Positions 5,853-40,445 of a stretch of DNA of 64,000 bases are shown in pieces. The notes under the pieces are model-generated. The model was not told where the DNA came from, searched no databases, and worked only from the letters and a program-made list of their open reading frames with translations. This stretch comes from an uncultured bacterium. GTDB taxonomy: Bacteria; Cyanobacteriota; Vampirovibrionia; Gastranaerophilales; Gastranaerophilaceae. The first letter of the stretch is position 1, and the number at the start of each line of letters is the position of its first letter. The stretch lies in assembly GCA_949286705.1 (NCBI GenBank), contig CASEDF010000006.1, positions 181,809-245,808 on the forward strand, read 5' to 3'. Made by a program: the position numbers and the translations under genes.

Positions 5853-7205
5853 ATGGATGAGTCGGGAAATTTAATTTTTAATTTATTCTTAATAGCATTC
5901 CTATTATTTTCAAACGGATTTTTTGTGGCAGCTGAATTTGCCATGGTAAAGGTCAGAAAAACCAGAATAGAGCAGCTTGTAAAAGAAGGCAACTACAGTG
6001 CGCAAATTGCGCTTGAAGCAATAAAAGATCTGGATAAATTTATTGCTGCGGTACAATTAGGTGTAACAATATCCAGTATCGGCTTAGGTTGGGTTGGCGA
6101 AGGGACATTGGCTCGCATAATTGAGCCGGTATTTGTATTTTTACCGGGCGTAAGCCAGACTATTGCAACCCATACGGTATCCGTTTCACTTGCATTTGCA
6201 CTAATCACATTCTTGCATGTTGTCTTAGGTGAACTTATTCCAAAATCTATTGCACTGGAATACACTGAAAAAACCGCACTTATAATTGCACGTCCAATGC
6301 AGGCAATTACATTTGTGTTTAATCCTTTTATCTGGCTCTTAAACGGCTTTGGCAACTGGGTTTTGAAACTAATGCATATTCCTCATTCGCATAAATCGTC
6401 ACTTGTGCATTCATCTGAAGAATTGGATATGCTTGTTGACGCAAGTTATAACGGCGGAGTATTGAATGAAACCGAAAAAGACATGCTTCATAACGTTTTC
6501 AAATTTTCCGACTTGACGGCAAAACAGGTTATGGTTCCGCGAACTGATATGGTTTGCGTGCCGATTGACATGTCTTTGGAAGAATTAAACAATGTTGCCA
6601 CTGAAAATCAATATACGAGATATCCGGTTTATGAAGGAGATATTGACCATATTACAGGACTAATTCACGTAAAAGATTTGTATAAATTATCGCTTGATGA
6701 CACCACATGCCCTATAGAACGCATTCAGCGTGAAATTTTACTGGTGCCTGAGACCATGACTATGGACAATCTGGTTTTGGAATTCAAAAAACGCAAAGGT
6801 CAAATGGCAATTGTAGTTGACGAATTCGGCGGAACATCAGGGCTTATAACACTTGAAGATGTAATTGAAGAAATTTTCGGCGATGTTCAGGATGAATTTG
6901 ACGAAGAAGAAGAACAAGAATGCGACATCAAAGAAATTGCGCCAAATACATATATAGCAAATGCAATGATGCGAACCGATGAAATCGCGGAATACTTCAA
7001 TATTGATGAAGAAGCAATTGATGACGAAGATATCGACACAATCGGCGGACTCGTTGTAAAACTTCTCGGAAGAATTGCTGAAGTCGGCGACACAGTAACC
7101 CATCTGGGATTAACCTTTATTGTAAAAGAAATTGAAGGCGCACGAATTACTAAACTTGAAATTATAAAAGAAGAAACTCCCGTTGCAGAACAGGTGCAGG
7201 AATAA
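5853..7205 (+). CDS. Hemolysin-family / CorC-type transporter-associated protein (DUF21-CBS-CorC_HlyC)
   Basis: 450 aa. N-terminal multi-TM DUF21, tandem CBS region, acidic linker, C-terminal CorC_HlyC-like domain. Confidence 0.85.
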   Translation: MDESGNLIFNLFLIAFLLFSNGFFVAAEFAMVKVRKTRIEQLVKEGNYSAQIALEAIKDLDKFIAAVQLGVTISSIGLGWVGEGTLARIIEPVFVFLPGVSQTIATHTVSVSLAFALITFLHVVLGELIPKSIALEYTEKTALIIARPMQAITFVFNPFIWLLNGFGNWVLKLMHIPHSHKSSLVHSSEELDMLVDASYNGGVLNETEKDMLHNVFKFSDLTAKQVMVPRTDMVCVPIDMSLEELNNVATENQYTRYPVYEGDIDHITGLIHVKDLYKLSLDDTTCPIERIQREILLVPETMTMDNLVLEFKKRKGQMAIVVDEFGGTSGLITLEDVIEEIFGDVQDEFDEEEEQECDIKEIAPNTYIANAMMRTDEIAEYFNIDEEAIDDEDIDTIGGLVVKLLGRIAEVGDTVTHLGLTFIVKEIEGARITKLEIIKEETPVAEQVQE

Positions 7206-7206
7206 T

Positions 7207-8136
7207 TTACTTTTCATTCAAGTATTTATAACTGCAACATGCTCCGGAAAGTTGTCTTCCTGTCAACAAATCGCCTGAGCCTAAAAATCCTTGCGCCTTT
7301 TCTATACCATATTCTTTACCGCATCCACAAGTTTCACCGTTAACATTTTTATTAAATGTTCCGTCTGCCCCGATTGGTCTTATCCAATTTTCATTCAGCA
7401 TAATGGCAAACATATCCCGCCCTACTACATTCGGTCCTTTTTGAAAACCGTTTACATCCACCGCTATTATAGGTGCACCATGCCCGCCAAAATATATTAC
7501 GGAACCGTCTTGCAATAAGATTGCTTTTTTAGATAAATCCCAGCCCGTATATAAACCGTTAAGCTGCGCATTATTACAACTTGATGAGCTCGTCGGTAAA
7601 TTTTTAAACGTACCGGAAATTAAAGATCCGTAAAAGCTGTATGCAGCAGCTCCACCGCAAAGCCCATTCCACTTGTCTAAATAATTATTGCAATATGCAC
7701 TCTCACCATATTGAGGAAATCCGCAGGTATCTATCACTTTGAAATGTTTTACCATAGCATTGACAAATTCCGGTGACATAGTAGTTCTCACTGCATAAAG
7801 CCCGTCATCAGGATATCTGCACTTTGCAGGCACATTATAATCCCCTGAATTGTTTACGCACAAACTATAATTATCAAGCTTTACGGCAGTGTATACCTGA
7901 CTAATTTCCGAAAATTTCTTTTTCCATATTGCTTTATTCTGCATATCACCAATTTTTTGAGATAAAGTAGGAATAGTCATTGCTGCGACAATGCCGATTA
8001 TGCCGAGGGTTATCAGAACTTCTGCCAGAGTAAACGCAGCTTTCTTTTTAAGGTCGTTAAGACGATAAGACTTTTGGACGTTAAGTTCTTTACTGAGGAC
8101 TTCGCTCACGTTTTTACTTTCCGAATTATAATTCAT
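7207..8136 (-). CDS. Type IV pilin-like protein A (prepilin-type N-terminal cleavage/methylation domain)
   Basis: AAFTLAEVLITLGIIGIVAAMTIP class III signal motif (F+1, E+5). C-terminal DVNG..GPN..GRDMF motif shared with paralogs. Start placed at ATG 8136 just after a consensus promoter. The frame stays open upstream to 8442 and beyond (see findings). Confidence 0.75.
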   Translation of the reverse strand: MNYNSESKNVSEVLSKELNVQKSYRLNDLKKKAAFTLAEVLITLGIIGIVAAMTIPTLSQKIGDMQNKAIWKKKFSEISQVYTAVKLDNYSLCVNNSGDYNVPAKCRYPDDGLYAVRTTMSPEFVNAMVKHFKVIDTCGFPQYGESAYCNNYLDKWNGLCGGAAAYSFYGSLISGTFKNLPTSSSSCNNAQLNGLYTGWDLSKKAILLQDGSVIYFGGHGAPIIAVDVNGFQKGPNVVGRDMFAIMLNENWIRPIGADGTFNKNVNGETCGCGKEYGIEKAQGFLGSGDLLTGRQLSGACCSYKYLNEK

Positions 8137-8145
8137 TATATTAGA

Positions 8146-8174
8146 ATTATAATTTGTTTCAGAGGGTGTGTCAA
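8146..8174 (-). promoter_or_regulatory. Perfect sigma-70 consensus promoter, 9 nt upstream of pilin A ATG
   Basis: Minus strand reads TTGACA (8174..8169) - 17 nt - TATAAT (8151..8146). No SD before the ATG. Confidence 0.65.
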
Positions 8175-8455
8175 TTCGTTTTGTAACTTTGTGATTGGGG
8201 TTACTAACCCGACTGTTAATTTTTCTGTCGGCATAGTAATGCCGACCTACATTTCCAAACCACCCCGGGATGACCTGCAAAGTTCCGCAAAAACCTAATA
8301 TGGTGTCGTGCCTCAGGCACTTCAGGATGGCAGACTCCATCCGAACATAACTATGTTGGGCCGTATTACTATGACGAATGTTACTTCTTAGTGCCTTAGT
8401 GCCATAGTATCTTAGTAACTTTTTCCAAACAATACCGCCCAAACCCTTGTTTACT

Positions 8456-8560
8456 TCATGTGCCGTTAAATTTTCTACAACTTCCCGTTGGTCGGGTCCA
8501 ACGGCTACGCTGGCTGGGAGAGTCGCCCCCCCCGAAATTCGAAAATATTTCTTTTCTCAT
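8456..8560 (-). other. SD-led mini-ORF containing a G8 tract (MRKEIFSNFGGG...)
   Basis: AAGGAGA, then 8 nt, then ATG (8560..8558). G8 occupies codons 10-12. Stop TGA at 8458..8456 in the present register. Confidence 0.5.
8526..8533 (-). repeat. Homopolymer G8 (C8 on plus strand)
   Basis: Counted directly: agtcg-cccccccc-gaaattc. Confidence 0.95.
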
Positions 8561-8587
8561 ATGCCATTCTCCTTCTTTTATGATTTT

Positions 8588-8596
8588 ATTATAACA
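8588..8596 (-). promoter_or_regulatory. Distal extended -10 promoter (TGTTATAAT) for the mini-ORF leader
   Basis: Minus strand tgt-tataat lies ~25 nt upstream of the SD. The paralogous position in locus B carries tga-tataat. Confidence 0.35.
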
Positions 8597-8690
8597 TAAA
8601 TCTACACCACATTAATGATATTTTAATTAATTCCTCTTTTAGTTGATCCAGCTGAATTGTATAGAAGATATACAAGAAAACATGCCTTAT

Positions 8691-8779
8691 ACATTTATTG
8701 TTAAAGAAATTGAAGGCGCACGAATTACTAAACTTGAAATTATAAAAAAACTCCCGCTGCAGAACAGGTGCAAGAGTAA
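8691..8779 (+). pseudogene. Duplicated, frameshifted 3' fragment of the corC-like gene
   Basis: 89 nt nearly identical to 7113-7205 (TFIVKEIEGARITKLEIIK). A 4-nt deletion breaks the frame. ORF 8643..8849 is an artefact of this fragment. Confidence 0.85.
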
Positions 8780-8781
8780 CA

Positions 8782-9462
8782 TTAAAAACCAAAGGGGTAA
8801 TCTTCGGGAATTTTCCAATTATTTTTTGCGATTAATGCTGCACATGTAAGATGCCTGTTTCCGACACATTTTTCCATAAGCTGCTCATCTGTAGCGGTAT
8901 CATTATAATGCATTCCATAAGGAACAACCCCGCTATTGAAATTATATGCATGCAAGACAAATACAAATATATTTTTGCCATATTCATCAGATATAGCAAT
9001 ATCTTCAGGATTACCGGATCCCATAGCCGGATAATTTTTATAATACTTTTTTGTGTTGTAAATATAATAGAAATATCTTCCATAGCTAAACACAGCCATA
9101 TCACCTGATTGAAAATATATTCCGACTGTCAGATTTGAATCAACATGTTTGTTATCTGCAGGATTATAATAACCACACTCGTAATCTGTTGTTTTCAGAT
9201 ATGGTGCCAAATATTGCTCATAAAAACCACACGAATCATATCCGTAATCTTTCCAAAATCGTCTTTCGCCATTTTCAATTTCTGACAATTTTATCGCCTG
9301 ATTAATTGTGGAATAAAACCTTGCCATACCGCTTTCAAGCACTTTCTTTTTATAATTCGAAATTAAATTCGGTATTGTCAATGCCGCAACTATACCGATT
9401 ATTGCAAGGGTTATTAATACCTCGGCAAGTGTAAATGCTCTTTTCATACTATAGTTTGCCAT
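8782..9462 (-). CDS. Type IV pilin-like protein B
   Basis: 226 aa starting MANYSMKR-AFTLAEVLITLAIIGIVAALTIP. ATG lies 6 nt after a consensus -10. Confidence 0.8.
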   Translation of the reverse strand: MANYSMKRAFTLAEVLITLAIIGIVAALTIPNLISNYKKKVLESGMARFYSTINQAIKLSEIENGERRFWKDYGYDSCGFYEQYLAPYLKTTDYECGYYNPADNKHVDSNLTVGIYFQSGDMAVFSYGRYFYYIYNTKKYYKNYPAMGSGNPEDIAISDEYGKNIFVFVLHAYNFNSGVVPYGMHYNDTATDEQLMEKCVGNRHLTCAALIAKNNWKIPEDYPFGF

Positions 9463-9468
9463 ATTGAA

Positions 9469-9497
9469 ATTATAGTTTATTCCGACAATACTGTCAA
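9469..9497 (-). promoter_or_regulatory. Perfect sigma-70 consensus promoter, 6 nt upstream of pilin B ATG (leaderless mRNA predicted)
   Basis: Minus strand reads TTGACA (9497..9492) - 17 nt - TATAAT (9474..9469) - ttcaat - ATG (9462). Confidence 0.65.
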
Positions 9498-9515
9498 ATA
9501 GTACTCTATGATTAC

Positions 9516-9563
9516 TTAGAGGAGTCGCCCCCCCCCGAAATTTGAAAATATTTCTTTTCCCAT
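9516..9563 (-). other. SD-led mini-ORF containing a G9 tract (MGKEIFSNFGGGRLL*)
   Basis: AAGGAGA, then 8 nt, then ATG (9563..9561), then G9, then stop TAA at 9518..9516. Confidence 0.5.
9528..9536 (-). repeat. Homopolymer G9 (C9 on plus strand)
   Basis: Counted directly: gagtcg-ccccccccc-gaaattt. Confidence 0.95.
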
Positions 9564-9709
9564 ATGCGATTCTCCTTCTTTTATAAATTTATTATATCAC
9601 AAATCTACATCACTTTAATGATATTTTAATTAATTCCTCTTTTTAGTTGATGTAGCCAAGGCTATATTGTATAGAATAGAAATATATTAAACAATATTTG
9701 GGCGGATTA

Positions 9710-10537
9710 ATGAGTCAAGATTTCGATTTTACATCGTATAATAACATTAAGCGTTTATCGGAAGAAGAACTTACGGCACTTTGGGGGAAATACCTTGCCG
9801 ACAAAAGTGACAAAGCTTCACGAGATGCTTTAATTGTGCAATATATTTATTTAATCCGTTATGTCGTAGGCAGAGTCAGAGTAACGCTGCCCGCAACGAT
9901 TTCCATTGAAGATATAGCAGGCTACGGGGTGGAAGGACTTATAAACGCAATCGAAAGATACTCCCCGCAAAAAAATACCAGATTTGAAACTTATGCACTT
10001 ATCAGAATCAGAGGAGCAATCCTTGACAAAATTCGTTCACAGGATTTTCTTCCCAGAAGCGTAAGACAAAAAATTAAAACCGTTAAAGAAGCTCAGGAAT
10101 CTTTAAAACAGGAACTCGGCCGCATGCCGACCACAACCGAAATTGCAAACAAAATTGACATGGATCCCGAAAAAGTAAATCAACTTTTGTCGGAAGACGT
10201 TACAATTACATCTTTGTATGATAAAAAAGGTAACGCTGAAGACAGTGTGGAAATTATAGACACAATTCAGGATACAAACAAACTTAACCCGCAGGAAAAT
10301 GCCGAAGAAAATAATGTAAAACAGGAATTGGAGAGGGCTTTAATGAGATTACCGGAAAGAGAACGAATTATAATGGTTCTTTACTATCAGGAAAACATGA
10401 CACTTAAAGAGATCGGTGAAACCATCAGTATGTCAGAGTCCCGCGTATGCCAGTTGCATGCTCAAGCAATTATGAAATTAAAAAATATTCTCAGCGAAAA
10501 CCGTTCAAACCGCTTGCGCCAGTCAATTGTTGCTTAA
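9710..10537 (+). CDS. fliA: Flagellar sigma factor FliA/WhiG (sigma-28)
   Basis: Sigma-70 family regions 2-4 (YIYLIRYVVGRV, FETYALIRIRGAILD, LKEIGETISMSESRVCQLHAQA). Size fits the group 3 flagellar sigma. ATG at 9710 is inside ORF 9698..10537. Confidence 0.85.
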   Translation: MSQDFDFTSYNNIKRLSEEELTALWGKYLADKSDKASRDALIVQYIYLIRYVVGRVRVTLPATISIEDIAGYGVEGLINAIERYSPQKNTRFETYALIRIRGAILDKIRSQDFLPRSVRQKIKTVKEAQESLKQELGRMPTTTEIANKIDMDPEKVNQLLSEDVTITSLYDKKGNAEDSVEIIDTIQDTNKLNPQENAEENNVKQELERALMRLPERERIIMVLYYQENMTLKEIGETISMSESRVCQLHAQAIMKLKNILSENRSNRLRQSIVA

Positions 10538-27625: not shown

Positions 27626-29087
27626 AGAACTTATTGAATATCTTGATTATAAAGACCTTGTAAATTTCAAAAGCGTTGAAGTCAGCGGAATTTCGTATAA
27701 TTCCCAGACAACAAAAAAAGGCGACATTTTTATATGTCTTGCTGGTGAACATACAGACGGTCACGAATATGCGCAAATGGCAATTGATAACGGTGCCGTT
27801 GCACTTCTTGTCGAAAGACCGCTGGATATCAAAATTCCGCAGGTAGTTGTATCTAATACCCGCCACAAAATTGCGGATATTGCTGACAGGTTCTATTCAA
27901 GACCCTCTTTAGGCTTAAATTTAATCGGTATTACCGGAACAAACGGAAAAACAACCGTAACTCATTTAATCCAGCGTATTTTTGAGGAAAATAATCAAAA
28001 ATGTGCACTTATCGGTACTTTAGGATACAAATTATCCTCAAACGGAGAATACCGTGACGCAAAACACACAACACCTCAGGCACCCGAATTACAGGCCACA
28101 TTGAGAATGATTAAGGATGTTGAAAAAATTGATAATGTTGTGATGGAAGTAAGTTCCCACGCGCTTGAACAAAATAGAGTCGGCGGCTGCAGATTTGACG
28201 GAGCAGTGTTTACAAACCTGACACAGGATCATCTGGATTACCATATTACAATGGAAAATTATTTCAACGCAAAGGCAATTTTATTCAAAAACCTTAAGGA
28301 AGGCTGTTTTGCAGTTATAAACATTGATGACGCATACGGCGAAAGATTTTTAAACGTTGTGCCTGAAGGAGTCAGAAAATACACCTACGGTGTAAAAAAT
28401 ACAGCGGATGTTATGGCAAAGGATATTGAATTTTCTTTAAACGGTGCTGAATTTACACTTGTGACAAAAGACGGTGAATACAAAGTCAGCCTTCACATGA
28501 ACGGTATGTTCAGCGTTTATAACGTACTTGCAGCTATTACAACGGCAATTGCTCAAGGAATTGAGATAAAAACAGCACTTAAAGCGCTGGAAAACGTAAA
28601 AGGAGTTGCCGGAAGGTTTGAAGTTGTGGCTAAAAAGCCGTTGGTAATCGTGGATTATGCACACACGCCCGACGGTTTGGAAAACGTTTTAAATTCAGCA
28701 AGAGAAATTACGCCGAAAGACGGGCATTTAATCTGTTTGTTTGGCTGCGGCGGCGACAGAGATGCCACAAAACGTCCGAAGATGGGTGCAATTGCAGAAA
28801 GAATTGCCGACAAAATAGTGATTACATCAGATAACCCAAGAAGCGAAGACCCGCAGCAAATTATAACCGATATAATCGCGGGTTTAAAATCAACAGATCC
28901 TGAAAAAGTTACGGTAGAACCCGACAGAGGCCGTGCAATCGAATTGTTGAAAACGATTTCAGGTAATAATGATGTTATAGTTATTGCAGGAAAAGGTCAC
29001 GAGGATTATCAAATCTTAAAAGACAGAACAATCCATTTTGATGACCGTGAAGAAGCACGAAAAGTTTTTGAAGGAACAGCAGTTTAA
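27615..29087 (+). CDS. murE: UDP-MurNAc-L-Ala-D-Glu:meso-DAP ligase
   Basis: 490 aa with GITGTNGKTT P-loop and the DNPR motif (ITSDNPRSEDP) typical of DAP-adding MurE. Confidence 0.95.
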   Translation: MKLEELIEYLDYKDLVNFKSVEVSGISYNSQTTKKGDIFICLAGEHTDGHEYAQMAIDNGAVALLVERPLDIKIPQVVVSNTRHKIADIADRFYSRPSLGLNLIGITGTNGKTTVTHLIQRIFEENNQKCALIGTLGYKLSSNGEYRDAKHTTPQAPELQATLRMIKDVEKIDNVVMEVSSHALEQNRVGGCRFDGAVFTNLTQDHLDYHITMENYFNAKAILFKNLKEGCFAVINIDDAYGERFLNVVPEGVRKYTYGVKNTADVMAKDIEFSLNGAEFTLVTKDGEYKVSLHMNGMFSVYNVLAAITTAIAQGIEIKTALKALENVKGVAGRFEVVAKKPLVIVDYAHTPDGLENVLNSAREITPKDGHLICLFGCGGDRDATKRPKMGAIAERIADKIVITSDNPRSEDPQQIITDIIAGLKSTDPEKVTVEPDRGRAIELLKTISGNNDVIVIAGKGHEDYQILKDRTIHFDDREEARKVFEGTAV

Positions 29088-29839
29088 TAATTCATCTTCC
29101 GTTCTTGAAAAATTCTATAAGCACAGCTGTAACCTTTTTTATCGGATTCACAGGTATTTCTTTGATCTATTCCGTTATCAAGGAAAGGTTCATTTGTATA
29201 AGGAAGAATTTTTCCGTGTCCATCTTTTTTCATATACAACCAGAACACATCCCTGCCAATTTGATTAGGTCCGCTTTTGCCGTTTACATCTATAGTAAAC
29301 AATAAATCAGGCTGTCCCCAGAAAACCCCGACATTACTTTCCTTAAAACGCAAGCCTATAACCGCGCCATCAGATAAAATAAATTGATAATTTAGGTGAA
29401 ATAGTCTACAGTTTACATGATCTGTAACACTTGTACCTGTTTCGCCGTTTAGATACTTATAGTCATAAGGATTCACATGACATTCATTTTCAATACTATC
29501 ACTGATAGGTTCACATTCGCCGATAATCTTCAATTTTTTTCTGTATAAATCCACTATACGTTCATTATCAATATTGGTGCCGTCGTTTTGATAGTAGTCA
29601 GTCCAACTCCATTGTGCAGGATCTCCTTCTTCAGCGATTATCATATTTGTAGCATTTTGTAAAACAGAATACGTTTTGAATAATCTTTCTACATATCCTC
29701 TGTTTGAAATATTCGTAACAAGTGTAGGAATGGTTATGGCTGCCACTATGCCGATAATGCCTAAAGTTATTAATACTTCGGCAAGCGTAAAAGCAATTTT
29801 AGAACTATAATTCTTCATATACGAATTATAATTTAACAT
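29084..29839 (-). CDS. Type IV pilin-like protein C
   Basis: ...KI-AFTLAEVLITLGIIGIVAAITIP, C-terminal IDVNGKSGPNQIGRDVFW. The consensus promoter at 29825-29853 implies the in-frame ATG 29818 (MKNYSSKI-AFTLAEV) is the start on the proximal transcript. Confidence 0.8.
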   Translation of the reverse strand: MLNYNSYMKNYSSKIAFTLAEVLITLGIIGIVAAITIPTLVTNISNRGYVERLFKTYSVLQNATNMIIAEEGDPAQWSWTDYYQNDGTNIDNERIVDLYRKKLKIIGECEPISDSIENECHVNPYDYKYLNGETGTSVTDHVNCRLFHLNYQFILSDGAVIGLRFKESNVGVFWGQPDLLFTIDVNGKSGPNQIGRDVFWLYMKKDGHGKILPYTNEPFLDNGIDQRNTCESDKKGYSCAYRIFQERKMNY

Positions 29840-29853
29840 TTTTATCTTGTCAA
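29825..29853 (-). promoter_or_regulatory. Perfect sigma-70 consensus promoter, 6 nt upstream of ATG 29818
   Basis: Minus strand reads TTGACA (29853..29848) - 17 nt - TATAAT (29830..29825) - tcgtat - ATG. Confidence 0.65.
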
Positions 29854-29901
29854 ACTCTCCGCAGGCAAACAGCGCACCCCCAAAAGCCTTACTATATCTA
29901 C

Positions 29902-29949
29902 TTAGAAAGGTCGCCCCCCCCCGTTATTCATATCTTCAACATACGCCAT
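29902..29949 (-). other. SD-led mini-ORF containing a G9 tract (MAYVEDMNNGGGRPF*)
   Basis: GGAGG, then 6 nt, then ATG (29949..29947), then G9, then stop TAA at 29904..29902. Confidence 0.5.
29914..29922 (-). repeat. Homopolymer G9 (C9 on plus strand)
   Basis: Counted directly: aggtcg-ccccccccc-gttattc. Confidence 0.95.
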
Positions 29950-29972
29950 AGCTTTCCTCCGTCTTTTTAAGT

Positions 29973-34160: not shown

Positions 34161-35222
34161 TTGATAAAGAAAAAGGGTTTTACTTTAGCAGAAGTTTTAA
34201 TTACGCTGGCAATTATCGGTGTTGTTGCGGCTATGACCATTCCGACATTAATTCAAAATTATCAGAAACACGCTTGGAATACAGCCTCTATGGTCTTTCA
34301 ACGAAAACTCGGCGATGCTTTAACAGTTATGAATTCTCAAGGTACTCTTGCAGGATATTCGTCTACTGAAGATTTCGTTGCTGAATTAGCAAAACATATG
34401 AAAATTTCCAAAATCTGCCGGAATAATGACCTTATGTCCTGTTTTTCCGATAAAGTATTCTGGGGTACTGAAAATGAAGAAATTGATATGACTAAAGTTA
34501 AAACCGTTAAAGACTTTGGAAGAGATGATTGGGAAGATACCGACATTATAGGCACTATGTTTGCTGACGGTACTACCGGACTTATTGCATATAACAAAGG
34601 CTGCAGGCAGGATCCTTATAGTAACAGAGTTATTACGACATCAAAAGAGGGTATCGGTACTGATTGTTTAGCTATTCTATATGATACCACAGGGTTTAAA
34701 ACTCCTAATACGCAGCAAGAAGATTTGAGAGGGTTAAATATTAAAAGTCTTGGGGGCAGCAGCTGTGCATTTGAAATTAACGGGATTTGTTTTACGGCGC
34801 CTTTTACGCCTGCTCCAATCACTATAGCCGAGTGCGAAAAACTTAAAGACGAGCTCCAAATACAAGAATGCCACTATGATGATGACTATTGGGCGGGAGC
34901 AGTCAAAACATGTGGAGGGGTAAATAAAATGCCAACTATGGCACAAATAGCTGAAATTGCTAATTATATATTTAACACATCTGATATTGGCGCCTATACA
35001 GATAAAATTAATAATGTAACACTTGATTATAATAAAGCTGCTGATCTGGGATTCACAGTTACACAAAATTCATCCTTTCTCATCTGGTCAAATGAAGAAA
35101 CTACGAATGATCCAGATGGATTAGGCTTAGCTTCTTCACGTGATTTTTATCCAACAGAAACAATGTGGAACAATGGAGCTCGTTTTTTTGACGCTCCGCA
35201 GGCAGTTTGCCTTGGTGATTAA
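34161..35222 (+). CDS. Type IV pilin-like protein D
   Basis: 353 aa starting (TTG)IKKKG-FTLAEVLITLAIIGVVAAMTIP, a classical short basic leader with Gly at -1. The start codon is uncertain (see findings). Confidence 0.75.
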   Translation: MIKKKGFTLAEVLITLAIIGVVAAMTIPTLIQNYQKHAWNTASMVFQRKLGDALTVMNSQGTLAGYSSTEDFVAELAKHMKISKICRNNDLMSCFSDKVFWGTENEEIDMTKVKTVKDFGRDDWEDTDIIGTMFADGTTGLIAYNKGCRQDPYSNRVITTSKEGIGTDCLAILYDTTGFKTPNTQQEDLRGLNIKSLGGSSCAFEINGICFTAPFTPAPITIAECEKLKDELQIQECHYDDDYWAGAVKTCGGVNKMPTMAQIAEIANYIFNTSDIGAYTDKINNVTLDYNKAADLGFTVTQNSSFLIWSNEETTNDPDGLGLASSRDFYPTETMWNNGARFFDAPQAVCLGD

Positions 35223-38572: not shown

Positions 38573-39208
38573 AAATTGATTTTCAACATCTGTAGGGATA
38601 TCTCTATACCAAGCAATATCTTTTCTGATAATTTTAGCTGGAGTTCCGGCATATATTGCATCTGAAATAGCACAATCTTTATTAACCAAACTTTTAGACG
38701 CAATTACAACATTATCTGCTATATGAACACCTTTATATACATTAACATCTTTTGCAAGCCAAACATGATTACCAATTTTTATACTCTTGCCTAAATTTAC
38801 GACCCCGCCCGTATGTTTATCAATTATCGCATGCGAATCCGTTGTTCTGATCTGAACTCTATTTGCAGTCATCACATCTTCACCTATGTCAATTGATAGA
38901 TTTGGTTCTTTAGATAACAATAAAATAACACCTACACATGAAAAATTTTTTCCGATGCATAATTTACTATTATCAGCCTGAGCTTCAATTCTTAAACCAC
39001 TCAGCTTATATGTTGAACTTTGAATTTCAATATTACAATTTGAACCTATTATCATTTTTGAACGTCTGAACTTTAAAGGCTGATGCAAAATAACAGTAGA
39101 ATTTTTCCCCAGGAATTTAATTCGACATCCTTTTATTCCTCTCAAACTGAATACTCTTTTCTTTTTACCTTTTTGATTTATTATATATATTTTATTTCCT
39201 TTAAACAT
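38555..39208 (-). CDS. Hexapeptide-repeat (left-handed beta-helix) acetyltransferase
   Basis: 217 aa with IGNHVWLAKDVNVYKGVHIADNVVIASKSLV hexapeptide repeats. Confidence 0.75.
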   Translation of the reverse strand: MFKGNKIYIINQKGKKKRVFSLRGIKGCRIKFLGKNSTVILHQPLKFRRSKMIIGSNCNIEIQSSTYKLSGLRIEAQADNSKLCIGKNFSCVGVILLLSKEPNLSIDIGEDVMTANRVQIRTTDSHAIIDKHTGGVVNLGKSIKIGNHVWLAKDVNVYKGVHIADNVVIASKSLVNKDCAISDAIYAGTPAKIIRKDIAWYRDIPTDVENQFLYSDD

Positions 39209-40445
39209 TTATAATCTTCTCCAATAAATCAACAACTTTTTCCGATGCATGACCATTTTCAATACATCTTTTATTTTCTAAAAATTCTTCAACTTTATCT
39301 TTATATTCTTTCTCGTCAAAATTCAAAATATTTTTATTTAACGTATCATTATCAACAGCTATAGGAAATGGTGTTGACTCAAGAGGATAATAAAATCCCG
39401 GATTGATCTCGTACTCTTTTAAATCCTTTGCAAAAATAAAACATGGTTTTCTTGACAGCATAAAATCAAACATACAGCTTGAATAATCACTTATCATAAA
39501 ATCGCTTACCAGCATTAATTCTTGTATATCACCATATTTTGTAACATCGACTATGTTGCGGGATTTAGGTATATGCAAATTTGTCATTTCATGATGTAAT
39601 CGGGTAAATATAACAAATTTACAATTATATTTTCTTTCAAAAGTATTCAAAATATTAAGATAATCAATATCATAACAATCATTATTTTTTAAGCTACTTC
39701 TAAAAGTCGGAGCAAATAAAATTATTTTTGCACCCGGTTCTACGTTATACAATTTGAAAATTTTATTTTTAATCTCTGCTATTTGCTCGTTTGATTTAAA
39801 AAACACATCATTGCGGGGATGACCAATATGTAAAATATTTCGATTCGGGAGTCTGTGTTCAAATACCATATCATCAACATCAGAATTCGATAATAAATAA
39901 TCCACAAAAGATACATCTTTTTGTGTCAAATCAATATATTGATTTGATATATCAACAGCGCTATCCAGACCTATCTTTTTGATTCCCAAAGAGCCATGCC
40001 ATGTTTGAATATAAATCTGGTCTTTTTTCTTACACAAACCTTTTTTAACATGATAAAGCTTTGCCTGATTATCAACCCATACTTTTGCTGTTGCCAGCTC
40101 TTTTAGTGCCTTTTTACTTTTATAATCAACCAATCTTACTTGCGGAGGAAATTCAGAAAAATCAATTTCACGTGAATTCTTATCAACTAACCATACAAGC
40201 TCAAAAGAATTTCCCCCCCTGTTTAACATCTCCTCGGCGATATATTTAGGATTACATCCGTACCCGCGTTTGCCTTTGGCATTACAGAAAACAATTTTGT
40301 TATTTTGAACAGGTAAATTTTTGTAATGTTCAAAATTTTTTGTCATATCATAACAAAAATTCAACCCTAATATTGTAAAGCTTTTCTTTGTTCCTTCATT
40401 TTTTACAGAAAAAATCCAATTCAAAAAATGTTTATTTTTCATCAT
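39201..40445 (-). CDS. CDP-glycerol/ribitol glycerophosphotransferase family protein (TagB/TagF type)
   Basis: 414 aa. The layout LFAPTFR...YSSCMFDFMLSRKPCIFFAKD is typical of the Glyphos_transf domain. Confidence 0.75.
   Translation of the reverse strand: MMKNKHFLNWIFSVKNEGTKKSFTILGLNFCYDMTKNFEHYKNLPVQNNKIVFCNAKGKRGYGCNPKYIAEEMLNRGGNSFELVWLVDKNSREIDFSEFPPQVRLVDYKSKKALKELATAKVWVDNQAKLYHVKKGLCKKKDQIYIQTWHGSLGIKKIGLDSAVDISNQYIDLTQKDVSFVDYLLSNSDVDDMVFEHRLPNRNILHIGHPRNDVFFKSNEQIAEIKNKIFKLYNVEPGAKIILFAPTFRSSLKNNDCYDIDYLNILNTFERKYNCKFVIFTRLHHEMTNLHIPKSRNIVDVTKYGDIQELMLVSDFMISDYSSCMFDFMLSRKPCFIFAKDLKEYEINPGFYYPLESTPFPIAVDNDTLNKNILNFDEKEYKDKVEEFLENKRCIENGHASEKVVDLLEKIINV

What the first reader, a model, noticed from the sequence alone, without database searches (positions are those of the whole stretch)
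9516..9563. Locus B: G9 tract mini-ORF, one G short of an in-frame fusion to the pilin
AAGGAGA, 8 nt, then ATG 9563 gives MGKEIFSNF-GGG-RLL-stop with G9 (9536..9528). With G10 the reading continues without a stop: GGG-ATPLSNHRVLFDSIVGINYNFN-MANYSMKRAFTLAEV. This adds a 34-residue extension to the prepilin. The mini-ORF and its flanks are near-identical to locus A, yet the tract lengths differ (8 versus 9). That difference is expected if the tract slips.
Basis: partly seen in the sequence, partly recalled or inferred. Interest (0 to 1): 0.75.

Follow-up and report, generated by a model that had tools for sequence, protein, structure and literature searches.

The report
Slippery G-run switch on pilin gene
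A run of nine G's sits in the true 5' end of a type IV pilin gene of an uncultured human-gut bacterium (Gastranaerophilales), one G short of the reading frame that makes the protein; dozens of sister genes carry the same switch cassette, so this looks like an undescribed family of on/off surface-variation loci, built on a well-known mechanism.

Summary
On the minus strand, SD AAGGAGA is followed after 7 nt (not 8) by ATG 9563. Nine codons later comes G9 (9536-9528), and the frame stops at TAA 9518-9516. G10 would fuse this ORF in frame to pilin 9462-8782. The "mini-ORF" is really the 5' end of a frame-gated long-leader prepilin. The same cassette precedes pilin genes at about 65 loci in Candidatus Gastranaerophilales MAGs, up to about 28 per genome. 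It reads SD-ATG, 6-10 variable codons, Gn, then C(G/A)AC-YYY-TYT-AAG-TAG. The ATG-to-tract distance is 0 mod 3 in 61 of 65 loci, so the ON length is 3n+1. The ON frame stays open to the FTLAEV motif, even through 163-172-codon leaders. Both OFF frames stop within 3-7 codons. Some loci have no other start codon. G10 in-frame alleles exist, and the same locus can be G9 in one sample and G10 in another. Locus B orthologs are G9 in 18 of 22 assemblies (G8 x2, G11 x2) and are never ON. It sits 6 nt before the pilin ATG and predicts a leaderless mRNA, so G9 may not mean "off". Best reading: slipped-strand phase variation, a known mechanism in a new lineage and architecture.

The parts
9591..9599 (-). 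P1: extended -10 promoter element TGaTATAAT of the cassette.
   Evidence: Read from the sequence. A TGnTAnAAT element lies within 100 nt upstream of the tract in 34 of 68 related loci, and a plain -10 in 18 more. Promoter activity is inferred.
9571..9577 (-). Shine-Dalgarno sequence AAGGAGA, 7 nt before ATG 9563.
   Evidence: About 60% of the window's genes have a GGAG-type SD, whereas the pilin's own ATG has none.
9537..9563 (-). Start codon plus 8 pre-tract codons (MGKEIFSNF). This is the true 5' end of the long-leader prepilin reading frame.
   Evidence: The start-to-tract distance is 0 mod 3 in 61 of 65 related loci. This segment is hypervariable between loci, with mean pairwise identity 0.37.
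9528..9536 (-). G9 homopolymer, the proposed slipped-strand switch. The ON length would be G10 (or G7 or G13).
   Evidence: Orthologs are G9 x18, G8 x2 and G11 x2.
9512..9527 (-). Conserved post-tract module CGACTCCTCTAAGTAA. In the ON frame it reads A-T-P-L-S-N. It carries TAA (9518-9516) in the G9 frame and TAA (9514-9512) in the G8/G11 frame.
   Evidence: The OFF frames stop 3 codons after the tract (67 of 68 loci) and 5-7 codons after it (68 of 68).
9463..9511 (-). Remainder of the ON-frame extension (...HRVLFDSIVGINYNFN), stop-free in the ON frame only. It contains promoter P2.
   Evidence: Across the 36 type-2 loci there are 0 stops in 551 ON-frame codons, against 32 and 124 in the other frames.
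9469..9497 (-). P2: perfect sigma-70 consensus TTGACA-17 nt-TATAAT. Six nt later comes the pilin ATG, which predicts a leaderless mRNA.
   Evidence: 12 of 12 matches. The same layout, TTGAC[A/C]-17-TATAAT-6-ATG, is found in 36 of 69 related loci. Leaderless-type starts are enriched in this window.
8782..9462 (-). Type IV pilin-like gene B (226 aa from the internal ATG). The leader is MANYSMKRA|FTLAEV and the head domain is DUF6613.
   Evidence: PF07963 scores 27.1 bits (cut-off 21.2) and PF20318 scores 51.6 bits. TIGR02532 scores 27.0 bits. The AlphaFold2 model has pLDDT 88, with a 53-residue N-terminal helix and a beta head.
8753..8768 (-). Terminator-like hairpin after pilin B. It lies inside a copied fragment of the 3' end of the neighbouring CNNM gene.
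7207..8596 (-). Locus A, the sister unit. It has an extended -10 (8596-8588), SD (8574-8568), ATG 8560 and G8 (8533-8526). A 170-codon stop-free ON-frame leader follows, then P2 (8174-8146), ATG 8136 and the pilin, ending at 7207. The ON length is G7 or G10.
29084..29960 (-). Locus C, the sister unit. It has SD GGAGG (29960-29956), ATG 29949 and G9 (29922-29914). Then come the module CGACCTTTCTAAGTAG, P2 (TTGACA 29853-29848, TATAAT 29830-29825) and ATG 29818, with the pilin ending at 29084.
   Evidence: The tract is G9 in 10 of 10 other assemblies.
8691..8779 (+). Duplicated 3' end of the CNNM gene (original at 7113-7205). It marks the tandem insertion that created locus A.
   Evidence: Relatives L003, L075 and L079 carry only pilin B between the sigma-factor gene and the CNNM gene.

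Best explanation
Locus B is one copy of a portable switch cassette that heads many type IV pilin-like (DUF6613) genes in Candidatus Gastranaerophilales. The cassette supplies a promoter (P1), a strong SD, an ATG and a few variable codons. These run into a poly-G tract that lies inside the coding region of the prepilin leader peptide.

Tract length sets the reading frame. At 3n+1 (G10), ribosomes that start at ATG 9563 read GGG-ATPLS... straight into the pilin. The product is a prepilin with a 43-residue leader that prepilin peptidase would cut at KRA|FTLAEV. At G9, as assembled, they stop at TAA three codons after the tract. At G8 or G11 they stop five codons after it.

Tract length changes by slipped-strand mispairing during replication. 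Each of the roughly 25-30 loci per genome can therefore flip independently. G9, one step short of ON, is the common resting length.

At locus B, as at A, C and about half of the family, a second route exists. A perfect sigma-70 promoter (P2) lies inside the extension and ends 6 nt before the pilin's own SD-less ATG. It should produce a leaderless pilin mRNA regardless of the tract.

What is shown: the anatomy, the frame logic, conservation of the ON frame, the existence of ON alleles, and length differences between samples. What is inferred: slippage as the cause, switching within one population, activity of P1 and P2, leaderless translation, and leader cleavage.
For: 1. Anatomy and in-silico fusion.
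2. A genome-collection scan for the tract plus module gave 62 distinct loci. Nearly all are in Gastranaerophilales MAGs, with up to about 28 in one MAG. Lengths were G7 x1-2, G8 x3, G9 x49, G10 x7 and G11 x1.
3. The start-to-tract distance is 0 mod 3 in 61 of 65 loci. The ON frame is open to the FTLAEV motif in 58 of 65, and most of the rest are truncated.
4. Type-1 loci have no alternative start codon between the tract and KG|FTLAEV.
5. There are 0 stops in 551 ON-frame codons, against 32 and 124 in the other frames.
6. The 163-172-codon leaders of A, L050 and L062 have 0 stops in the ON frame and 12-19 in each other frame. This holds although A is only 60-62% identical to L050 and L062 (which are 87% identical to each other), with many indels.
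7. Full-length ON proteins exist, and G10 is seen in their DNA.
8. 90%-identity clusters mix long (ON) and short (OFF) calls of the same pilin.
9. The same locus is G10 in one sample and G9 in another with identical flanks. Locus B orthologs are G8, G9 or G11. Another locus is G10, G12 or G13.
10. Both OFF frames stop at once.
11. Pilin identity is supported.
12. Known precedents: a modal G9 with length-dependent insertion/deletion bias in C. jejuni (PMC3401435), a G tract in the signal-peptide region of gonococcal pilC (PMC5354566), and a G tract in a gut commensal's pilus genes (PMC9187656).
13. P2 evidence.
Against: - Locus B was never seen in the ON length. It was G9 in 18 of 22 assemblies, and locus C was G9 in 11 of 11. 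However, the look-ups used the short gene call, which biases against ON alleles.
- Two of the four deviating B assemblies have low coverage (2.6x and 5.4x), so homopolymer error is possible for those.
- No reads were available, so heterogeneity within a sample is untested.
- P2 with a leaderless ATG means the pilin may be made at G9 anyway. The phenotypic effect of the switch at B is therefore uncertain.
- A leader peptide of 43 residues here, and up to about 180 at sister loci, is unusually long for a prepilin. Its processing is assumed.
- Many of the loci are paralogs or orthologs, so the counts are not independent.
Confidence: 0.68

Rival explanations
1. At locus B the upstream cassette is a resting or decaying relic. 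Pilin B is expressed only from P2 as a leaderless mRNA, and G9 is simply a fixed sequence with no role today.
For: P2 is a perfect 12-of-12 consensus placed 6 nt before the ATG. Leaderless-type starts are used by housekeeping genes in this window. G9 was found in 18 of 22 B assemblies and 11 of 11 C assemblies, with no ON allele.
Against: The SD, the ATG, the 0-mod-3 spacing and a stop-free ON frame are all intact in every B allele, despite several substitutions in the pre-tract codons and the extension. Across the family the ON frame has 0 stops in 551 codons. Sister type-2 loci (L007, L008, L039, L053) are ON at G10.
Confidence: 0.12
2. G9 is the functional state and is decoded by recoding. 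Either -1 ribosomal frameshifting on G GGG GGG or RNA-polymerase slippage on the run gives a steady low yield of fusion protein from every locus. DNA length changes are then incidental.
For: G9 is strikingly dominant, in 49 of 62 loci. A -1 slip on the run lands exactly in the ON frame and gives the same protein as G10 (derived from the sequence). A stop codon follows closely in the zero frame.
Against: No conserved stimulatory structure was found. The 151-nt leader folds with a z-score of only -1.29. The upstream codons are hypervariable, so there is no conserved internal SD-like stimulator. G10, interrupted in-frame ("locked") and G7 alleles exist as population consensus. Transcriptional slippage is established for A/T runs rather than G runs (own knowledge). 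A modal G9 is also explained by mutational bias (PMC3401435).
Confidence: 0.08
3. The tract tunes transcription from P2 by changing the spacing or phasing of an upstream element or activator site. This is how promoter-located tracts work in Bordetella fim or Neisseria porA/opc. The short ORF would be incidental.
For: The tract ends 30 nt upstream of the P2 -35 hexamer, about -66 to -75 relative to the predicted start. This is a position where activators or UP elements act.
Against: The tract is not between the -35 and -10 of either promoter. Type-1, CCNLK-type and long-leader loci carry the tract with no P2 or no internal ATG. A purely transcriptional role does not explain the SD-ATG at 0 mod 3 in 61 of 65 loci, or the stop-free ON frame.
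Confidence: 0.06
4. The short ORF is a regulatory leader peptide: three rare GGG codons followed by a stop. It would control the downstream pilin by attenuation, stalling or reinitiation and would never be fused to it.
For: In the common G9 state every locus encodes M-x(6-10)-GGG-(R/Q)-x-x-stop, ending at a conserved TAA.
Against: Apart from GGG the peptide is not conserved. Loci without any internal start cannot express the pilin this way. ON-frame conservation over up to 172 codons is left unexplained. No terminator or anti-terminator structure was found. Rfam found nothing.
Confidence: 0.04
5. The tract-length differences (A versus B, and between samples) are homopolymer sequencing or assembly errors.
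For: Long G runs are error-prone. Two deviating contigs have low coverage.
Against: More than 30 independent assemblies from different pipelines agree on G9 at B and C. ON-length alleles recur on several long contigs and in several protein clusters.
Confidence: 0.02

Closest known systems
Neisseria gonorrhoeae/meningitidis pilC phase variation (G tract in the signal-peptide coding region; Jonsson et al. 1991, as summarised in PMC5354566)
   Same: A poly-G run lies in the 5' coding region for the leader of a pilus protein. Frameshifts by slippage turn full-length translation on and off.
   Different: pilC has one or two copies and encodes a tip or assembly protein with a Sec-type signal peptide. 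Here the tract is in the class III (prepilin) leader of the pilin-like subunits themselves, on a shared cassette at about 25-30 loci per genome. Many loci also carry a nested second promoter.
Campylobacter jejuni polyG/C contingency genes (PMC3401435)
   Same: An AT-rich gut organism carries tens of intragenic G tracts in surface-structure genes, with a modal length of nine. G8 tends to gain and G11 tends to lose repeats, which would explain a G9 resting state.
   Different: In C. jejuni the tracts sit in unrelated genes, each with its own ON length. Here one conserved cassette gives the same ON rule (3n+1) to a whole paralogous pilin family. Mutation rates here are unmeasured.
Bifidobacterium breve sortase-dependent pilus G-tract switch (PMC9187656)
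   Same: In a human-gut commensal, an intragenic G tract keeps pilus genes mostly OFF in the reference sequence. Replication slippage creates an ON subpopulation that is enriched in vivo.
   Different: That case involves sortase pili of a Gram-positive organism, with two loci and the tract inside the body of the gene. There is no shared cassette and no nested promoter.
Promoter-located homopolymer switches (Bordetella pertussis fim C-stretch; Neisseria porA/opc; own knowledge)
   Same: A homopolymer next to pilus or surface-protein genes varies in length.
   Different: Those tracts lie within the promoter and change transcription. Here the tract lies in a translated frame, downstream of P1 and 30 nt upstream of P2.
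Multigene surface-variation families (Neisseria opa, Mycoplasma vlp/vsa; own knowledge)
   Same: Many paralogous surface-protein genes each carry an independent repeat switch. This gives combinatorial expression.
   Different: The repeat type and position differ: CTCTT in the opa leader, and poly-A in the vlp promoter. No type IV pilin family with per-gene homopolymer switches was found in the searched literature.

Membership tests
Simple-sequence-repeat contingency locus (translational phase variation) | A mutable homopolymer of 7 or more bases inside the translated 5' part of a gene. | tested here: met
   G9 lies 27 nt after an SD-led ATG. The same layout is seen in about 65 loci.
Simple-sequence-repeat contingency locus (translational phase variation) | A change in repeat number toggles between a full-length and a truncated product. 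| tested here: met
   In silico, G10 or G7 gives a 260-aa fusion, while G9 and G8 stop after 3 and 5 codons. Natural G10 alleles are called full-length.
Simple-sequence-repeat contingency locus (translational phase variation) | Repeat number differs between otherwise identical genomes or populations. | tested here: met
   L008 has G10 and L010 has G9 with identical flanks. Locus B orthologs are G8, G9 or G11. Another locus is G10, G12 or G13. At B itself G9 dominates, in 18 of 22 assemblies.
Simple-sequence-repeat contingency locus (translational phase variation) | High-frequency, reversible switching within a clonal population. | not testable with these tools
   This needs read-level or culture data.
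Type IV pilin / pseudopilin (class III signal peptide) | An N-terminal (G/A)|F-T-L-x-E cleavage/methylation motif followed by a hydrophobic helix. | tested here: met
   PF07963 scores 27.1 bits against a cut-off of 21.2. TIGR02532 scores 27.0 against 16.3. The model has a helix spanning residues 12-64.
Type IV pilin / pseudopilin (class III signal peptide) | A globular alpha-beta head resembling solved pilins. | tested here: inconclusive
   The AlphaFold2 model (pLDDT 88) has a beta-sheet head. Foldseek against the PDB gave no hit with E below 0.001. The head domain is DUF6613.
Type IV pilin / pseudopilin (class III signal peptide) | Prepilin peptidase and assembly machinery present in the same genome. 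| not tested
   None were found in this 64-kb window. pilB, pilC, pilD and pilT are reported for Ca. Gastranaerophilus termiticola (PMC5877343).
Leaderless gene (mRNA starting at the AUG) | A -10 hexamer ending 6-7 nt before an ATG that lacks an SD. | tested here: met
   TTGACA-17-TATAAT-6-ATG lies at 9497..9460. The layout recurs in 36 of 69 loci. It is also found at the KdsA, S4 and DAGK genes and others in this window.
Leaderless gene (mRNA starting at the AUG) | A mapped transcription start at the A of the ATG. | not testable with these tools
   This needs 5'-end RNA mapping.
Programmed -1 ribosomal frameshift site | A slippery X XXY YYZ heptamer plus a conserved stimulator (downstream structure or upstream SD-like element). 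| tested here: not met
   G GGG GGG is formally slippery. However, the fold z-score is -1.29 and the upstream codons are not conserved.
Promoter-spacer homopolymer switch | The tract lies between the -35 and -10 hexamers, or between an activator site and the core promoter. | tested here: not met
   The tract is downstream of P1 and 30 nt upstream of the P2 -35 hexamer. Many loci with the tract have no P2.
Known structured RNA (riboswitch or leader) | A match to an Rfam covariance model. | tested here: not met
   Only tRNA passed the gathering threshold in the window. Nothing meaningful appeared at E up to 10 in 7900-9750.

The most novel reading that the evidence does not exclude
The cassette is a portable two-route expression switch that has not been described. 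One route is a G-tract-gated, SD-dependent reading frame from P1. The other is a consensus promoter (P2) embedded inside that gated frame, which makes a leaderless mRNA for the same pilin. About 25-30 pilin variants per genome would be held one G short of ON as a silent reserve. Cells would then combine condition-dependent (leaderless) and stochastic (slippage) expression, or read the G9 state by -1 frameshifting. The cassette also appears to act as a recombination joint that shuffles promoters and pilin bodies. It tolerates in-frame MITE insertions that create leader peptides of about 170 residues.
Probability: 0.2. Interest if true: 0.75.

Novelty: new variant of a known kind. Interest (0 to 1): 0.6.

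Why it matters
Gastranaerophilales are uncultured, non-photosynthetic relatives of cyanobacteria that live in the human gut. Almost nothing is known about how they deal with the host, with phages or with neighbouring cells.

A family of about 25-30 independently switchable pilin genes per genome would give them a large combinatorial surface repertoire. That would place a commensal lineage alongside Neisseria and Campylobacter as a heavy user of contingency loci.

There are also practical consequences.
- Gene callers start these genes at the wrong codon. Database entries of 226, 248 and 260 aa all describe the same gene.
- MAG consensus sequences hide the ON/OFF state.
- The conserved 24-nt tract-plus-module string marks these loci and can be counted directly in metagenomic reads.

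The nested leaderless promoter, if active, is an unusual arrangement worth testing.

Tried and rejected
- Structured RNA or riboswitch. An Rfam gathering scan of the whole window found only tRNA. A permissive scan of 7900-9750 found nothing credible. The leader fold is not unusual, with z = -1.29. I first suspected that locus A's 400-nt G+C-richer spacer was a ribozyme or intron. It turned out to be a stop-free, in-frame leader built from repeat modules.
- JGI metagenome scan. The tract pattern gave only 6 hits, which was not useful.
- Foldseek of the pilin B model against the PDB. There were no significant matches, so no finer pilin class could be assigned.
- Exact-protein look-ups. Locus A (309 aa) is not on record. 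Two start choices for locus C (251 aa from ATG 29839, and a mis-set 29815 start) were not in the collection; the 244-aa form starting at 29818 worked.
- Conserved extension motifs. I considered that LDT and NYNS reflect a functional peptide. They coincide exactly with the -35 and -10 hexamers of P2, whose spacer is constant in length but variable in sequence, so I read them as a promoter.
- SD sequestration. I considered pairing of the SD with the downstream CUCCUC. The minimum-free-energy fold does not pair them.
- Literature. Searches for Gastranaerophilales or Melainabacteria with pilin, phase variation, homopolymer or DUF6613 found no prior description.

Full report
**1. Observation**

On the minus strand the sequence reads AAGGAGA (9577-9571), a 7-nt spacer, then ATG (9563). 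The ORF is ATG GGA AAA GAA ATA TTT TCA AAT TTC, then G9 (9536-9528), then CGA CTC CTC TAA (stop at 9518-9516). Adding one G gives a stop-free 260-aa product that runs into ORF 9462..8782, 34 residues longer than the 226-aa ORF.

The tract is an outlier. The window is 35% G+C and has only four G/C runs of 6 or more (G8, G9, G9, G7), with no run of 6. All four are G on the minus strand, and three lie at the 5' ends of pilin genes. Loci A and B share 115 nt at 92% identity, running upstream from the tract.

**2. The gene**

ORF 9462..8782 carries the prepilin N-terminal cleavage/methylation motif (PF07963 and TIGR02532, both above their cut-offs) and a DUF6613 head domain. An AlphaFold2 model has pLDDT 88. 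It shows a 53-residue N-terminal helix followed by a beta-sheet head, the general pilin layout. Foldseek found no significant PDB match.

The window is ordinary chromosome. It holds flagellar rod genes, a FliA-like sigma factor, housekeeping genes and a surface-polysaccharide cluster, with no pilus machinery genes. The four pilin genes are scattered singletons. The fourth (34161..35222) has a short MIKKKG|FTLAEV leader, its own GGAGG and no tract.

**3. Organism and spread**

I scanned one genome per GTDB species for G7 or longer, followed by C(G/A)AC-YYY-TYT-AAGTA. This returned 60 stretches holding 62 distinct loci.
- Almost all are in Candidatus Gastranaerophilales MAGs.
- One MAG has about 28 loci, and several others have 7-9.
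- The exceptions are one chance hit in Pedobacter and two contigs of a MAG labelled Muribaculaceae.
- Tract lengths were G9 x49, G10 x7, G8 x3, G11 x1 and G7 x1. One further G7 is cut by the locus edge.

The architecture is constant: a TATAAT-type -10 (often TGnTATAAT), AGGAGG, a start codon (ATG in nearly all), 6-10 variable codons, the tract, then the conserved module.

**4. Evidence that the fusion frame is the real gene**

- The start-to-tract distance is 0 mod 3 in 61 of 65 loci, so a single rule (ON = 3n+1) applies to the family.
- In "type 1" loci (L014, L016, L017, L030, L041, L044, L055, L058) the module runs directly into ...KG|FTLAEV. There is no other start codon, so the upstream ATG is the only way to make the pilin.
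- In loci with an intervening segment, the ON frame has 0 stops in 551 codons. The other two frames have 32 and 124.
- Locus A, L050 and L062 have leaders of 163-172 codons built from repeat/MITE-like modules. Each has 0 stops in the ON frame and 12-19 in each other frame. A is only 60-62% identical to L050 and L062 (which are 87% identical to each other), with many indels.
- The module CTAAGTAG(A) encodes L-S-R in the ON frame. It places TAA in the G9 frame and TAG in the G8/G11 frame, so OFF-frame ribosomes stop after 3 and 5-7 codons in essentially all 68 loci.
- A protein search with the in-silico G10 product found database proteins called straight through the tract. Examples are P0002, P0056, P0058, P0053, P0005, P0006 and P0018. 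Their DNA has G10 (L007, L008).

The "mini-ORF" is therefore the truncated 5' end of a long-leader prepilin.

**5. Evidence that the tract length changes**

- L008 and L010 come from two samples. They are identical over 400 nt upstream and differ at 8 of 3000 positions downstream, yet carry G10 and G9.
- 90%-identity protein clusters hold both long and short calls of the same pilin. Examples are 283 aa versus 250 aa, and 243/247/268/272 aa versus 221 aa.
- One of these loci is G12 in five assemblies and G13 in another. Its protein calls also imply G10 alleles.
- In-frame interrupted ("locked") alleles also occur, for example PGRGH versus PGGGH.

For locus B itself, 22 assemblies of the ortholog gave the following.
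- G9 in 18. In four of these the C after the run is changed to T, which puts TGA in the zero frame.
- G8 in 2.
- G11 in 2.
- G10 in none.

Locus C was G9 in all 11. These look-ups used the short gene call and so are biased against ON alleles. Two deviating contigs have low coverage.

A modal G9, with insertions favoured at G8 and deletions at G11, is documented for C. jejuni (PMC3401435). This offers a mutational explanation for a G9 resting state.

**6.

The promoter scan found a perfect TTGACA-17-TATAAT at 9497-9469, inside the extension. It ends 6 nt before the pilin ATG 9462, which has no SD. Loci A (8174-8146) and C have the same element. So do 36 of 69 related loci, all with spacing 17 and 6 and with the ATG in the ON frame.

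The "conserved peptide" motifs of the extension, LDT/FDS and NYNS, are these two hexamers. The spacer between them is constant in length but variable in sequence, as expected for a promoter.

The predicted transcription start is the A of the ATG, which makes a leaderless mRNA. In this window TATAAT-N6-ATG opens ORFs of 80 aa or more in 9 of 17 cases, against 19% for all ATGs. These include the KdsA, S4 and DAGK genes, so leaderless genes appear normal in this organism.

Tract-less family members (P0012, P0063 and the window's fourth pilin) use ordinary SD-led starts. P2 was seen only together with the cassette.

At locus B the pilin may therefore be made at G9 through P2. The tract would then gate an additional SD-driven route rather than act as the sole switch. 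Why both routes coexist is unexplained.

**7. Mechanism and rivals**

The best-supported reading is slipped-strand phase variation of a frame-gated prepilin leader, repeated across a pilin multigene family, with a nested leaderless promoter at about half the loci (confidence about 0.68). The rivals are:
- a resting or relic cassette at B, with expression only from P2 (0.12);
- recoding of G9 by -1 frameshifting or transcript slippage (0.08);
- a transcriptional effect on P2 (0.06);
- a leader-peptide attenuator (0.04);
- sequencing artefact (0.02).

No Rfam family and no unusual RNA fold were found.

**8. Comparison with known systems and novelty**

The mechanism matches gonococcal pilC, which has a G tract in its signal-peptide region (PMC5354566). 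It also matches the C. jejuni polyG genes (PMC3401435) and the Bifidobacterium breve pilus G tract (PMC9187656).

It differs in four ways.
- It sits in the class III leader of the pilin subunits themselves.
- It is carried on one conserved cassette at about 25-30 loci per genome, with stops built into both OFF frames.
- It tolerates very long in-frame leaders.
- It often encloses a consensus leaderless promoter.

Full-text searches found no prior description for Gastranaerophilales or DUF6613. I rate it a new variant of a known kind, of moderate to good interest.

Noticed in passing
window 40213-40219 (minus strand), inside ORF 39201..40445: A fourth long run, G7, lies in frame inside a 414-aa TagF-like CDP-glycerol glycerophosphotransferase gene (PF04464). 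The gene sits in a surface-polysaccharide cluster with LicD/GT8, an IspD-like gene and an epimerase. It is a candidate second class of phase-variable gene.
   Followed up: no
window 12448, 4961, 30031, 60411 (+) and 4923 (-): Housekeeping genes (KdsA, a metallophosphoesterase, a 302-aa ORF, a DAG kinase and an S4-domain protein) have TATAAT 6-7 nt before an SD-less ATG. TATAAT-N5-8-ATG opens long ORFs in 9 of 17 cases against a 19% background. Leaderless mRNAs may be common in this lineage.
   Followed up: partly
window 7113-7205 vs 8691-8779, and 8526-8640 vs 9529-9643: Locus A arose by a tandem insertion or duplication that copied the 3' end and terminator of the CNNM gene together with the promoter and pre-tract module. 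Related strains (L003, L075, L079) have only pilin B between the sigma-factor gene and the CNNM gene.
   Followed up: partly
window 8130-8525 (locus A leader); L035, L036, L049, L050, L062; L022/L065: Repeat or MITE-like modules are inserted between the cassette and the pilin and are kept in frame. They include a hairpin ccagcgtagccgytggacccg, the string gatactaagatactatggcactaag, and an element with terminal inverted repeats GGAATGTGTCTTT...AAAGACACATTCC. Their translations resemble the HAELVSAS / LKQVQGDK strings seen at the N-termini of many database pilins (P0024, P0028, P0102).
   Followed up: partly
All cassette loci (e.g. L016 vs L044; proteins P0005/P0153/P0154; window A vs B): The tract marks a recombination boundary. 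The same pilin body occurs with unrelated pre-tract codons and promoters, and near-identical promoter and pre-tract segments precede unrelated pilins. Mean pairwise identity is 0.37 before the tract and 0.56-0.76 after it.
   Followed up: partly
L075-L078 (ortholog of locus B): In this allele the C after the G9 run is a T (G9-TGACTCC). This puts TGA directly after the run in the zero frame and GTG in the ON frame. Gene callers then start the gene at that GTG (248-aa product P0126).
   Followed up: yes
L027, L049, L058 (second site), L064: A few loci break the 0-mod-3 rule. L027 has 22 nt before the tract and is ON at G9. L058b has 31 nt and is OFF at G10. L049 extends the run by a substitution. 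L064 has a stop before the tract, next to a T9 run.
   Followed up: partly
L023 and L051 (CAYYAG01, MAG labelled uncultured Muribaculaceae): Two contigs of a MAG labelled Muribaculaceae carry the cassette (one G10, ON) ahead of an FTLAEM pilin. This may reflect mis-binning or a second host lineage.
   Followed up: no
L035 (CALUTI010000001.1): This cassette has G9 and an intact module, but the ON frame closes after 53 codons and no pilin follows. It may be a solo or decayed cassette.
   Followed up: no
window 34161-35222 (+): A fourth pilin-like gene (353 aa, N_methyl motif) has a conventional short leader and a GGAGG, and carries neither a tract nor P2.
   Followed up: partly
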